DNA from: a plasmid
Reading direction: 5' to 3' (one strand)
DNA: 64,000 nucleotides
Assembly: GCF_056746865.1 (NCBI RefSeq)
Contig: NZ_JBWKMP010000005.1
A program made the position numbers. This document shows, one piece after another, positions 57,001 through 60,000 of the stretch (within the stretch, counting starts at the first letter, position 1; every line of letters starts with the position of its first letter).

Positions 57001-60000
57001 CGCATCATATTTTTGTTGCGTCTCTGCAACGTTGCTTGATAAGTCATATTGCGATCGCAAAGAGCTAAGATCTGATTTTGCACTATTTGTTATTGTTGAT
57101 AGAGAATCCTTCATATAGCTGGATGCGCTATCAAAGCCATTGCTGAAATCAGTGAAGCCTTCGAGTCTTTTCTTCTGTTCTTCAGCGTATCTTATGGTCT
57201 GTTCATATTGTTGCTTGAGTTGCTCAAGCTGTCTTGCCGCTTCAGCAGCACGATTTAGCCCTTCTTCAACTGTTTTAGCTATTGCTGCAACGTCTACTAC
57301 TGGAATACCAGATGCAAAGATTGATGGTGATGTTATGGTAATTATTCCAGCAAAGAGAAATGATAATACTTTATCTTTCATGTTAATCACCCCGCTTTAA
57401 GTTTACTTCCACGGTTTAATCCCTGAACTAATGCTGATGCAGAACGACTTCCTGCATTAAAGAATGGATTTGGCATTTTGCTGGCAAAACCATTAGTGAA
57501 AGATCGGAGTCCTGATGCTCGCATAAAACCGGATGCAACCTTACCTCCAAAGCCATTAGCGGCTGATGTAAGGCCATTTATACCTACCCCGCCAGTAAGA
57601 GTTGAGCAGAGAGTACCTACTTGCTCAACAAGGAATATAGATATAACAGTCACCATAAAGAAATAAACTACTGTTGTGAGAGTTATATTTCCGCTTGATG
57701 GGACTGTTTGCTCTACAAAGCTGATGACGAAGCTGAACGATATACTATAAAAAAGATTTAGCAATATATAATTTAAACAGCTACCTACCCATGCGCTAAA
57801 CATATTTCTTGTCGAAGCAAATAGAGAAAAACAGATAAATAATATTCCGGCGGATAAGAGAATGCCAACCATGAATGTTGATAGAGTTAGAAATACAGTG
57901 GTGTAATAAATAAGCAGCAGCCCGCCAACATATCCAACCCCCCAAATTAGATATATGTATAGTTGATCTGTGAAGCTATACCACTCCAGAGTATCTAACT
58001 CATTATTCTTAAAATCATTTAACGTTACTGAAAGCATATTCCACAAATTATCAACACTGGTTGCAGTTCCTGAACCTCCAGTAACAGCAGCAGAAAGGTC
58101 GGAGCCAGCGTGCATGACAAACGGAATCACAAACTCACTGTAATAAGGTGCTGAATAAGTGAATGCACCAACCAGGGCGAATGCACCGATGTTTTTTGTG
58201 ACCTCACTCATGATGACGTCACGCTGGGAATACGTGATTTCATATATTAGATAAATGACGTATAAGGCTATGGCGGCAAAGAATACAGGAGATATTGCCT
58301 GTGCAACCTTAGCGGCGTTCGTCGCCGCCGTTGATTCAACAGCGGTTGTTACTTTCTCAAGAAATAATGAAACAACATTCATGGCTTAGTCCTTCTGGCA
58401 GATGAAGAGTTCACCAGAGGCACTAATATTTGGCTTCAGCTTAATTACCAGGTCTGTACCGAAAAAAATTGCTTCTCCAATTTTTTGGAAATTTAATGTG
58501 GATTCTTCTTTATTGTAACTATAAACGTTGTGGGTCGCTGTCGATGTTTTGGTTTTACGTGGTGTAAACGCTTTTTTAATGATGTAATCGAGAGCGTGGC
58601 TGTTATGAGATGGTAAAGTGATTAAATCGTCGTTTTTTTTCATAATGTAGTTCTGATTTTTGAGGTTGAAGATAATTGTCGGTCAATGCTTTTGATTTTT
58701 TTTCGTATCTCAATTGGATTCGCCTCAGATAAGTTAGCAATGGATAAAGCCAGTTCGATTTGTAAAATTTTCCTTGTTTCGATGAGATTGATTTTTACTT
58801 GTGGTATATCACGGAAGACACCACAGCCGGTAATTGCTTTTGAAACGACACGTTCTGTATTCGCTATGCTTTTCTTTACTGTTCGAGGGGGGACATAACG
58901 TGCACGGCGAAGTTTTCTCAGATTAGCTTTTGCTTGAGTCATGTAATGTGTCCAGAGTTATAATTTTATTTCTTTGCATGATTCCCCTTTACGGCACACA
59001 GATACACGGTTGTTTATCACATTCACCACTGTCACAGTTCCGTCGTCGCATTGAGTGACGATGAAAGGGTATTCGTTGATTTTTGTACAGTGAGATTGTT
59101 CTCCTGCTATTGCAACCACAACCGGGCTAATAAATAACGCCAGAACAGATGCCAGCTTAATAAAAGCACTCATTTTTGTATGCCCTATATAAATAAATAC
59201 TTTCTTCAAATCCTGAATATACTATCTGAATACAGAAGCGGTCCTGTTCTCCTGAAGTAAGGCTTCATTATTTTATGGGCCATTGGATGGGTAGTATGTA
59301 CGGGTATTGATAGAATGAATTTTGAATGTCCTGTTTTTATTGCATTCAGAAGTTCGTCAATTTCTTTTTGAGATGTCGTTGCTTTCATCAACAAGTGCCT
59401 CAATAAGTTTATTAATACACGCCCGTTCTGCCGGAACCTCCCGGCCTGTAATCGGGTCAAAAACGACATGATCGCTTTCAACGTAACGTAAACGGTGATA
59501 GACATCTATACGGAGTTTTGTTTTAGCAGCTTCACGTTCAACTCGAGTTAACTCTTCTTTTTCTCGTTTGCTGCTGAAAAACAGAAACCAGATCATTGCT
59601 ATGATAATTACTAAAAAAGGGATAACGGTGCCTAAAATAATTACTAAAAAAGGGACAACGGTGCCTAAAATGCTTACCATTTCTGCCATGCCATCCAGAA
59701 TAGATTGAATCTTTCCTGTGGCTGTGGTGGTTGTTACTGGTTCAGCAAAATCAGAAACAGTGTCTGATAAAAATGTAAATAAACGGGCAGATAAACCAAA
59801 TAGCACGCCAAAAACGAGAACTTTTATTATCGAACCGTATACATTTAATAGACTGTATTCTTCCTCTTTAGGCGATTCAAAGTTTTTTGCCCTTTGTGTC
59901 TGCTCTTGTTTAGAACCAGAAACACCTCCGATGAATAAGCCAATACCACCAGTACCTAAACCAATACCCCCACCAGTACCATTCCATTTACCTGTTGTTG

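What the first reader, a model, noticed from the sequence alone, without database searches (positions are those of the whole stretch)
59606..59671. 33-bp tandem duplication within a transmembrane segment
The unit aattactaaaaaagggataacggtgcctaaaat is repeated twice with one mismatch, duplicating 11 residues (LGTVVPFLVII then LGTVIPFLVII) in the membrane protein 59357-60052. It is either a recent in-frame duplication or a collapsed or expanded repeat in assembly.
Basis: seen in the sequence. Interest (0 to 1): 0.3.

Follow-up and report, generated by a model that had tools for sequence, protein, structure and literature searches.

The report
In-frame 33-bp duplication in plasmid gene yhbB
A real 33-base in-frame tandem duplication lengthens the second membrane-spanning segment of YhbB, an uncharacterised and dispensable protein of IncI2 conjugative plasmids; it is an inherited allele found in about a quarter of these plasmids, not an assembly error, and is of only minor interest.

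Summary
Bases 59606-59638 and 59639-59671 are head-to-tail 33-bp copies with one mismatch (59623 t / 59656 c). They lie in frame in the minus-strand gene 59357-60052 (231 aa).

The window is an mcr-1-carrying IncI2 conjugative plasmid, and the gene is yhbB of the R721/TP114 backbone.

- **One copy is ancestral.** R721, TP114 and every homologue examined down to 37% identity carry one copy.
- **The two-copy allele is inherited.** Its junction is identical in 36 PLSDB plasmids and 30 complete E. coli genomes, always with Val in copy 1 and Ile in copy 2. The exact protein is recorded on at least 1000 public contigs. 105 PLSDB plasmids carry one copy, always Val. No three-copy allele was found.
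- **Origin.** It is a single-origin duplication, older than the spread of its lineage, and not an assembly artefact or a variable repeat.
- **Effect on the protein.** The uncharged run of transmembrane segment 2 grows from 26 to 37 residues. The family range is 12-27.
- **Function.** YhbB matches no Pfam, NCBIfam, PHROG or PDB family. Published TP114 transposon data score it dispensable for maintenance and in vitro conjugation. The change is most likely tolerated and near neutral.

Interest is low.

The parts
59357..60052 (-). yhbB gene (231 aa), an uncharacterised two-TM membrane protein of the IncI2 plasmid backbone. This is the two-copy allele, identical to RefSeq WP_021503155.1.
   Evidence: ORF list; 100% identical to annotated 'yhbB protein' in many IncI2 plasmids; orthologue of TP114-091 yhbB.
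59639..59671 (-). Repeat copy 1 in gene orientation. It encodes I128-I138 (ILGTVVPFLVI) and carries the ancestral GTC (Val) codon.
   Evidence: All 105 single-copy plasmid alleles carry the Val form.
59606..59638 (-). Repeat copy 2 in gene orientation. It encodes I139-I149 (ILGTVIPFLVI) and carries the derived ATC (Ile) codon (59623 t on the + strand).
   Evidence: The same Val/Ile arrangement is found in all 36 carrier plasmids and in all protein variants read.
59604..59605 (-). Two bases (AT in gene orientation) shared by the start of the unit and the sequence just after the array. ATTTTAG versus ATCATAG match at 5 of 7 positions. This short microhomology makes the duplication boundary ambiguous.
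   Evidence: TRF extent of 68 bp = 2 x 33 + 2; flanks printed.
59570..59680 (-). Predicted transmembrane segment 2 (residues 125-161). The uncharged run is 37 aa here and 26 aa in the one-copy allele.
   Evidence: Hydropathy and run-length calculation; one continuous helix in the AlphaFold model, at low confidence.
59765..59854 (-). Predicted transmembrane segment 1 (residues about 67-96).
   Evidence: Kyte-Doolittle segments 66-96; helix 68-102 in the model.
59360..59572 (-). Conserved C-terminal soluble region (residues 161-231) with the invariant motif Y-x-RLRY-x-E-x-(D/N/E)(H/N)-x-VFDP. It is predicted to be cytoplasmic.
   Evidence: Invariant columns in the family alignments; a K/R-rich flank follows TM2 while the TM1-TM2 loop is acidic; domain model pLDDT 79.

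Best explanation
This is a genuine in-frame 33-bp tandem duplication allele of yhbB, a backbone gene of IncI2 conjugative plasmids; the window itself is an mcr-1 IncI2 plasmid. The one-copy gene (663 bp, 220 aa) is ancestral. I infer that the duplication arose once, by replication slippage or misalignment at a short imperfect microhomology (ATTTTAG / ATCATAG), and that a later G-to-A transition turned Val into Ile in the second copy. The allele was then inherited, and moved by recombination between IncI2 backbones, so that it now marks about a quarter of sequenced IncI2 plasmids. At the protein level it inserts 11 hydrophobic residues into transmembrane segment 2, taking the uncharged run from 26 to 37 residues. 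I infer that this segment still crosses the membrane once, as a longer or tilted helix, so the conserved C-terminal domain stays in the cytoplasm. Because yhbB is dispensable for plasmid maintenance and for conjugation on agar, the insertion is most likely tolerated and close to neutral. Shown: the repeat, its reading frame, the one-copy state of relatives, its population frequency, and the uniformity of the allele. Inferred: the slippage mechanism, the order of events, the topology and the neutrality.
For: - **Repeat and frame:**
- **One copy in relatives:** R721 has one copy. TP114 has one copy. All 26 single-copy homologues aligned (26 of the 29 rows of the alignment), spanning 37-98% identity and including Klebsiella, Pseudomonas, Halomonas and Burkholderiaceae, have one copy and no indel at that position.
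- **Population counts:** A junction-specific 46-bp query finds 36 PLSDB plasmids and 30 of 5426 complete E. coli genomes. All are 100% identical with one place each.
- **No single-copy Ile allele:** A synthetic one-copy query finds 105 one-copy plasmids, the best at 97.6% identity. So no one-copy Ile allele exists, and the carriers also differ from all one-copy alleles at a further site within the 84-bp query; against R721 the only other difference in that stretch is the Asp/Gly codon next to the repeat.
- **Tight haplotype:** Full-length carrier genes listed are at least 99.7% identical to the window, while the listed full-length one-copy genes are at most 98.9%.
- **Breadth:** The exact protein is on at least 1000 contigs.
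- **Independent of mcr-1:** The allele is present in an mcr-1-free IncI2 plasmid of Salmonella diarizonae, while the window carries mcr-1.
- **Outlier length:** The TM2 run is 37 aa against 12-27 aa (median 24) in the family.
- **Dispensability:** TP114 high-density transposon mutagenesis scores yhbB as '-' for maintenance, '-' for in vitro conjugation, '-' for in situ only, '+' (at least one replicate) for in vitro plus in situ, and 'soft-core' (Neil et al. 2020, PMC7508951, Supplementary Data 1). The conjugative-typed plasmid pMTY1887_IncI carries yhbB truncated to 330 bp.
Against: - No reads are available for this particular assembly, so the copy number in this very molecule rests on identity to other assemblies.
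- Single origin is inferred from allele uniformity, not from a recombination-aware phylogeny. Two rare Logan-assembly variants (P0001, P0002) combine the duplication with substitutions otherwise seen on one-copy haplotypes. This needs recombination, or chimeric assembly, to explain.
- Neutrality is not tested. TP114 carries the one-copy allele, so no experiment addresses the two-copy form.
- A 37-residue hydrophobic run containing two Gly-Thr-Val-x-Pro motifs could in principle fold back as a helical hairpin.
- The whole-protein model has low confidence (pLDDT 64).
Confidence: 0.85

Rival explanations
1. Assembly artefact: the repeat was wrongly expanded in this assembly, or collapsed in others.
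For: None specific. Short tandem repeats are a generic source of assembly error, and no reads could be examined here.
Against: The identical 696-bp gene and junction occur in 36 complete plasmids from many laboratories, hosts and countries, and in 30 complete E. coli genomes. The exact protein is on at least 1000 contigs. A 66-bp array is shorter than any modern read. The two copies differ at one base, which argues against a simple stutter.
Confidence: 0.01
2. The duplication is functionally significant. By lengthening TM2, or by converting it into a helical hairpin that moves the conserved C-terminal domain to the periplasm, it changes or abolishes YhbB activity. It was then selected in a successful IncI2 sublineage, for example one that later carried mcr-1.
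For: The TM2 length is far outside the family range (37 versus 12-27 residues). The first half of the extended segment has a marginal insertion energy, about 0 kcal/mol on the Hessa scale, while the second half scores -3.5. The allele reaches about 25% of IncI2 plasmids and is common among mcr-1 carriers. The neighbouring genes yheB and the stomatin-like ydhA matter for conjugation in the mouse gut.
Against: yhbB is dispensable in TP114 in nearly all conditions, and it is truncated in a plasmid typed as conjugative. The allele also occurs in mcr-1-free plasmids, and one-copy alleles occur in mcr-1 plasmids such as KX013540, so there is no tight association. Its frequency can be explained by hitch-hiking on an epidemic backbone. 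37 residues is short for two membrane spans plus a turn.
Confidence: 0.08
3. The array arose by unequal recombination between two pre-existing one-copy alleles (one Val, one Ile), rather than by slippage followed by a point mutation.
For: IncI2 backbones are mosaic. The two-copy allele sits next to either form of the SPFH-NfeD spacer, 61 bp in CP011291 and 379 bp in the window. The two copies differ at exactly one site.
Against: No one-copy Ile allele exists among 105 one-copy plasmids or among the close protein clusters. Unequal exchange would still need a misaligned register with only 2-5 bp of homology.
Confidence: 0.05
4. A hypervariable (contingency or phase-variable) repeat whose copy number changes frequently.
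For: It is a tandem repeat inside a coding region of a mobile element.
Against: Only two states exist (1 or 2 copies). No three-copy allele is seen, with one junction per record in all 66 records with the junction (36 PLSDB, 30 E. coli; the two collections share records). The unit is a multiple of three, so it cannot switch the frame. The Val/Ile difference is fixed, and copy number follows the haplotype.
Confidence: 0.01

Closest known systems
yhbB of IncI2 plasmids R721 (NC_002525) and TP114 (MF521836; TP114-091)
   Same: Orthologous gene in the same backbone position: CaiF/GrlA regulator, DUF1187, SPFH, NfeD, 56-aa ORF, yhbB, small ORFs, VirB6-like traA, VirB5-like trbJ, EexN. It is 98.3-98.9% identical at the DNA level outside the repeat.
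   Different: R721 and TP114 have one 33-bp unit (663 bp, 220 aa), and the window has two (696 bp, 231 aa). The window's allele also differs from R721 by 8 substitutions, 7 of them amino-acid changing (Val/Ile, Ala/Ser, Val/Gly, Asp/Gly and Arg/His among them).
Ordinary in-frame tandem-duplication (slippage) indel polymorphisms in bacterial genes
   Same: Head-to-tail copies, a length that is a multiple of three, short microhomology at the boundaries, one copy in all relatives, and stable inheritance afterwards.
   Different: Nothing unusual in kind. The only notable point is the location in the hydrophobic core of a transmembrane helix, where an 11-residue insertion is less commonly tolerated.
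Wider YhbB-like family of plasmid membrane proteins (200-225 aa), in plasmids with KorA/KfrB/Trb (IncP-1-type) genes and other plasmids of Salmonella, Klebsiella, Pseudomonas, Halomonas and Burkholderiaceae
   Same: Same architecture: a Gly-rich N-terminus (G-x-G-x-G... with invariant glycines), two hydrophobic segments, and a C-terminal RLRY...VFDP domain.
   Different: Those genes sit beside KorA, ParB, H-NS, topoisomerase III or Trb genes without SPFH/NfeD. All have an unduplicated TM2. No member has a known function or belongs to a Pfam or NCBIfam family.

Membership tests
IncI2 yhbB orthologue group | High sequence identity to R721/TP114 yhbB over the full length | tested here: met
   98.9% DNA identity to R721 outside the 33-bp gap. 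100% identical to RefSeq 'yhbB protein' WP_021503155.1.
IncI2 yhbB orthologue group | Conserved backbone position between the NfeD/SPFH genes and the VirB6/VirB5-like transfer genes on an IncI2 (MOBP, MPF_T) plasmid | tested here: met
   Pfam assignments of the neighbours. Same gene order in R721, pMCR-GN775, TP114 and CP011291.
Tandem duplication by slippage or misalignment | Two adjacent direct copies where relatives have one, with no other sequence inserted | tested here: met
   The alignment with R721 shows a clean 33-column gap. The protein alignment shows an 11-column insertion only in the 231-aa forms.
Tandem duplication by slippage or misalignment | Microhomology between the start of the unit and the sequence following it | tested here: met
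   AT is shared (the TRF array is 68 bp = 2 x 33 + 2). ATTTTAG and ATCATAG match at 5 of 7 positions. The homology is weak, so it is supportive rather than decisive.
Contingency / phase-variable coding repeat | Copy number varies frequently among close relatives, with many states | tested here: not met
   Only 1 or 2 copies are found. All 36 carrier plasmids and 30 genomes have one identical junction. Copy number follows the haplotype.
Contingency / phase-variable coding repeat | Unit length not a multiple of three, or a repeat that switches expression | tested here: not met
   The unit is 33 bp (11 codons), and the reading frame is intact in both states.
Any curated protein family (Pfam, NCBIfam, PHROGs) or solved structure | Score above the family's curated cut-off, or a significant sequence or fold match | tested here: not met
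   Best Pfam hits are DUF4349 at 19.3 bits (cut-off 27.7) and EI24 at 18.8 bits (cut-off 32), both over the TM region. The NCBIfam FliL and pilin-like hits are far below their cut-offs. There is no PHROG hit. PDB profile searches give only chance-level hits to membrane or designed helical proteins (best E = 0.0044, a designed transmembrane helical protein; all others E >= 0.29). The best Foldseek E-value against the PDB is 1.7.
Essential conjugation or maintenance component of IncI2 plasmids | Transposon insertions in the gene are lost after transfer or during maintenance | tested here: not met
   Published data for the one-copy orthologue in TP114: '-' for maintenance, '-' for in vitro conjugation, '-' for in situ only, '+' (at least one replicate) for in vitro plus in situ (PMC7508951 Supplementary Data 1). 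Not tested for the two-copy allele.

The most novel reading that the evidence does not exclude
The 11-residue extension of TM2 is not neutral. It changes how YhbB sits in the membrane, either through a hydrophobic mismatch or through a hairpin that relocates the conserved C-terminal domain. This would modulate a still unknown membrane function linked to the adjacent SPFH/NfeD module, which is needed for conjugation in the gut, and would give the lineage that includes many epidemic mcr-1 IncI2 plasmids a transfer or fitness advantage.
Probability: 0.05. Interest if true: 0.4.

Novelty: already known. Interest (0 to 1): 0.12.

Why it matters
It matters little biologically. The finding shows that this oddity in the raw sequence is a true, inherited allele and not an assembly error, so the annotation of a 231-aa YhbB is correct.

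It has some practical use. The 46-bp junction (59617-59662) is a clean presence/absence marker that splits IncI2 plasmids into a two-copy sublineage and a one-copy majority (36 versus 105 in PLSDB). This could help in typing mcr-1 and other IncI2 plasmids and in detecting backbone recombination.

It is also a natural example of a transmembrane helix tolerating an 11-residue hydrophobic insertion. YhbB itself remains an uncharacterised, widespread plasmid membrane protein.

Tried and rejected
- **Function by sequence.** Pfam, NCBIfam and PHROGs on the protein, and Pfam on all 29 aligned family members, gave only sub-threshold hits driven by transmembrane composition. PADLOC was not run.
- **Function by structure.** PDB profile searches with the whole family and with the C-terminal domain gave nothing credible. 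The whole-protein AlphaFold model had low confidence (pLDDT 64). The C-terminal domain model was better (pLDDT 79), but Foldseek against the PDB gave no match with E below 1. The afdb50 library was unavailable.
- **Function by conserved neighbourhood.** Distant homologues lie in other plasmid backbones beside KorA, ParB, H-NS, topoisomerase or Trb genes, without SPFH/NfeD. No consistent partner emerged.
- **Literature.** No paper in the library contains both 'yhbB' and 'IncI2' in its main text. The name appears only in a supplementary table of the TP114 transposon study, which was the only functional information found.
- **Other alleles.** I looked for a one-copy Ile allele, which would support an unequal-recombination origin, and for three-copy alleles. 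Neither was found.
- **Hairpin in the unit.** I read the unit for self-complementarity that might promote slippage. It contains a direct TTTTAG repeat but no inverted repeat. This was by eye only, with no fold run.

Full report
**1. The observation**

The sequence read shows two head-to-tail 33-bp units at 59606-59638 and 59639-59671. They differ at one base (59623 t, 59656 c). Tandem Repeats Finder reports the same array (59604-59671, period 33, 2.1 copies, 97% matches, no indels, score 129).

The array lies in a minus-strand ORF, 59357..60052, of 231 aa. It has an ATG start, and a GAGGA Shine-Dalgarno motif ends 7 nt upstream of that ATG. The unit is 11 codons. The protein reads ...SILGTVVPFLVIILGTVIPFLVIIIAM..., so the single mismatch is GTC (Val) versus ATC (Ile). 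Given the window's base composition, about 1e-11 tandem repeats of this quality are expected by chance.

**2. What the locus is**

The gene is 100% identical to the annotated 'yhbB protein' (WP_021503155.1) of many IncI2 conjugative plasmids (MOBP, MPF_T) from E. coli, E. albertii, Salmonella and Cronobacter. The window itself carries mcr-1 at about 19828 on the + strand, so it is an mcr-1 IncI2 plasmid.

On the minus strand the gene order is:
- CaiF/GrlA-type regulator (62923..62417)
- DUF1187 gene
- SPFH/stomatin-like gene (62055..61060)
- NfeD (60680..60237)
- a 56-aa ORF
- yhbB
- three small ORFs
- VirB6-like gene (58382..57387)
- VirB5-like gene (57390..56740)
- EexN lipoprotein

**3. One copy is ancestral, and two copies is a single inherited allele**

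*One copy in relatives.* R721 has a 663-bp gene with a clean 33-column gap against the window, and its single unit encodes Val. TP114 also has 663 bp. A protein search found 54 relatives. The 26 single-copy homologues aligned, at 37-98% identity, come from Salmonella, Klebsiella, Pseudomonas, Halomonas, Burkholderiaceae and metagenomes. All have one copy and no indel at this position. Only the 231-aa forms have the 11-residue insertion.

*Population counts.*

| Query | Collection | Result |
|---|---|---|
| 46-bp junction, 59617-59662 (cannot seed on a one-copy gene) | PLSDB plasmids | 36 records, all 100% identical, one place each |
| Same junction query | 5426 complete E. coli genomes | 30 genomes, all 100% identical, one place each |
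| Synthetic one-copy query carrying the Ile codon | PLSDB plasmids | 105 one-copy records, best identity 97.6% |

From these results:
- There is no three-copy allele.
- No one-copy Ile allele exists.
- Carriers differ from every one-copy allele at a further site within the 84-bp query. Against R721, the only other difference in that stretch is the Asp/Gly codon next to the repeat.

*Haplotype and breadth.* Full-length carrier genes listed are at least 99.7% identical to the window, while the listed full-length one-copy genes are at most 98.9%. Every two-copy DNA or protein variant I read has Val in copy 1 and Ile in copy 2. The exact 231-aa sequence is recorded on at least 1000 public contigs.

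*Relation to mcr-1 and to the flanks.* The allele occurs in an IncI2 plasmid of Salmonella diarizonae from Germany; no mcr-1 is annotated in the 50 kb of its 58 kb that I read, which include the region where the cassette would be expected. One-copy alleles occur in IncI2 plasmids whose size and name suggest they carry mcr-1, such as KX013540, though I did not check this. The flanks are mosaic: CP011291 combines the duplication with the short R721-type SPFH-NfeD spacer, whereas the window has the long TP114-type spacer.

Together this supports one origin, followed by vertical inheritance and recombination between backbones. It excludes both an assembly artefact and a hypervariable repeat. The allele is not brand new, because it has fixed a substitution and has spread across hosts and continents.

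**4. How it probably arose (inferred)**

In gene orientation the one-copy sequence is ...AGC|ATTTTAGGCACCGTTGTCCCTTTTTTAGTAATT|ATCATAGC... The start of the unit (ATTTTAG) and the sequence after it (ATCATAG) share AT and match at 5 of 7 positions. This is a weak microhomology of the kind usually seen at slippage duplications.

The simplest history is a duplication followed by one G-to-A transition in the second copy. Unequal exchange between Val and Ile alleles is less likely, because no one-copy Ile allele was found.

**5. Effect on the protein**

Hydropathy identifies two hydrophobic segments, at about residues 67-96 and 125-161.

Charge distribution suggests the topology. The TM1-TM2 loop (residues 97-125) is acidic (1 K/R, 5 D/E). 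The stretch immediately after TM2 (SKREKEELTRVEREAAKTKLR) is rich in K/R, and charged residues also precede TM1. This points to an N-in, C-in topology with a cytoplasmic C-terminal domain, which is an inference from the positive-inside rule.

The duplication raises the uncharged run of TM2 from 26 to 37 residues. In 26 one-copy homologues this run is 12-27 residues, with a median of 24.

AlphaFold models the region as one continuous helix, but with low confidence (pLDDT 64). A hairpin is not excluded. The first half of the extended segment has an insertion energy of about 0 kcal/mol on the Hessa scale, and the second half about -3.5. However, 37 residues is short for two membrane spans plus a turn.

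**6. What YhbB does**

The function is unknown.
- No Pfam, NCBIfam or PHROG model reaches its threshold. The weak hits (DUF4349, EI24, FliL, PspB, DUF2207_C) all cover the TM region.
- PDB profile searches give nothing credible.
- The conserved C-terminal domain (invariant Y-x-RLRY-x-E...VFDP) models as a helix, three short strands and a helix at pLDDT 79. It has no fold match in the PDB (best E = 1.7).
- Distant homologues sit in other plasmid backbones next to KorA, ParB, H-NS, topoisomerase III or Trb genes, without SPFH/NfeD. The neighbourhood therefore gives no consistent clue.

The only functional data found are from high-density transposon mutagenesis of TP114 (Neil et al. 2020, PMC7508951). 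Supplementary Data 1 of that paper lists yhbB (TP114-091) as of unknown function and soft-core. It is scored as not required for maintenance or for in vitro conjugation, and as '+' in at least one replicate only in the combined in vitro plus in situ condition. A natural plasmid typed as conjugative, pMTY1887_IncI, carries yhbB truncated to 330 bp.

My working model is a small inner-membrane accessory protein with a cytoplasmic C-terminal domain, which is dispensable for transfer under laboratory conditions. The insertion is therefore most likely tolerated and close to neutral. This last step is inference, because the experiments used the one-copy allele.

**7. Comparison with what is known, and verdict**

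The locus is a member of the IncI2 yhbB orthologue group, meeting both the sequence and the position criteria. It is an ordinary slippage-type in-frame duplication. It fails the tests for a contingency repeat, for any curated protein family, and for an essential transfer gene.

The allele is already in RefSeq and in hundreds of assemblies. I found no paper discussing it. Interest is low (0.12).

The one reading that would raise it is that the TM2 extension alters topology or function and was selected in an epidemic IncI2 sublineage. This is not excluded but is unlikely (about 5%).

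Noticed in passing
window 61366-61452 (minus-strand SPFH gene 61060..62055): A second array with a 33-bp period (TRF: 1.9-2.5 copies, 78-86% matches). 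It encodes three 11-residue repeats, [11 protein letters not shown] / [11 protein letters not shown] / [11 protein letters not shown], in the stomatin-like protein. R721 has the same three repeats, and TP114 has them with substitutions. This looks like an old, conserved coiled-coil repeat and not a recent duplication.
   Followed up: partly
window 60681-61059 (between NfeD and the SPFH gene): The spacer is 379 bp here and in TP114 but 61 bp in R721 and CP011291. This is a 318-bp indel carrying a hydrophobic ORF (60683..60982, 99 aa as listed; annotated as 255 bp in some records; TP114-088, 'accessory'). It segregates independently of the yhbB duplication, which shows that the backbone is mosaic.
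   Followed up: partly
window about 19828-21450 (+): An ORF starting MMQHTSVWYRR... and containing GETARADH, which is the colistin-resistance gene mcr-1. This identifies the window as an mcr-1 IncI2 plasmid.
   Followed up: partly
window 58640-58942 and 58386-58643 (-): Two small ORFs (100 and 85 aa) lie just upstream of the VirB6-like gene and have no family match. By position they correspond to TP114 yhaB and yhaA, which the TP114 transposon study scores as required for conjugation (++ and +/++), yet their function is unknown. The mapping is by position only.
   Followed up: partly
window 58958-59209 (-): An 83-aa ORF with a hydrophobic N-terminus matches phage protein family phrog_20764 (E = 7e-32, unknown function), an unexpected phage-family link in a plasmid transfer region.
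   Followed up: no
window 59206-59505 (-), overlapping the 3' end of yhbB: An out-of-frame ORF overlaps the last ~150 bp of yhbB. PGAP annotates a 183-bp version as a hypothetical protein in some plasmids, and a 60-aa form is oddly grouped in the same 90% protein cluster as YhbB. It is probably a spurious call.
   Followed up: no
L009 (NZ_CP128966.1, pMTY1887_IncI) 2966-3295: In this IncI2 plasmid yhbB is reduced to a 330-bp ORF. The megablast match to the window covers only the 5' 295 nt of the gene (query 402-696 in + strand coordinates), so TM2 and the C-terminal domain are missing or replaced. The cause (deletion or replacement) was not examined.
   Followed up: partly
P0001 and P0002 (Logan assemblies), compared with window 59357-60052: Two rare 231-aa variants combine the duplication with substitutions otherwise seen on one-copy haplotypes (IMGG; TSLSNTGSDFS, EEEYC). 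This suggests intragenic recombination between alleles, or chimeric assemblies.
   Followed up: no
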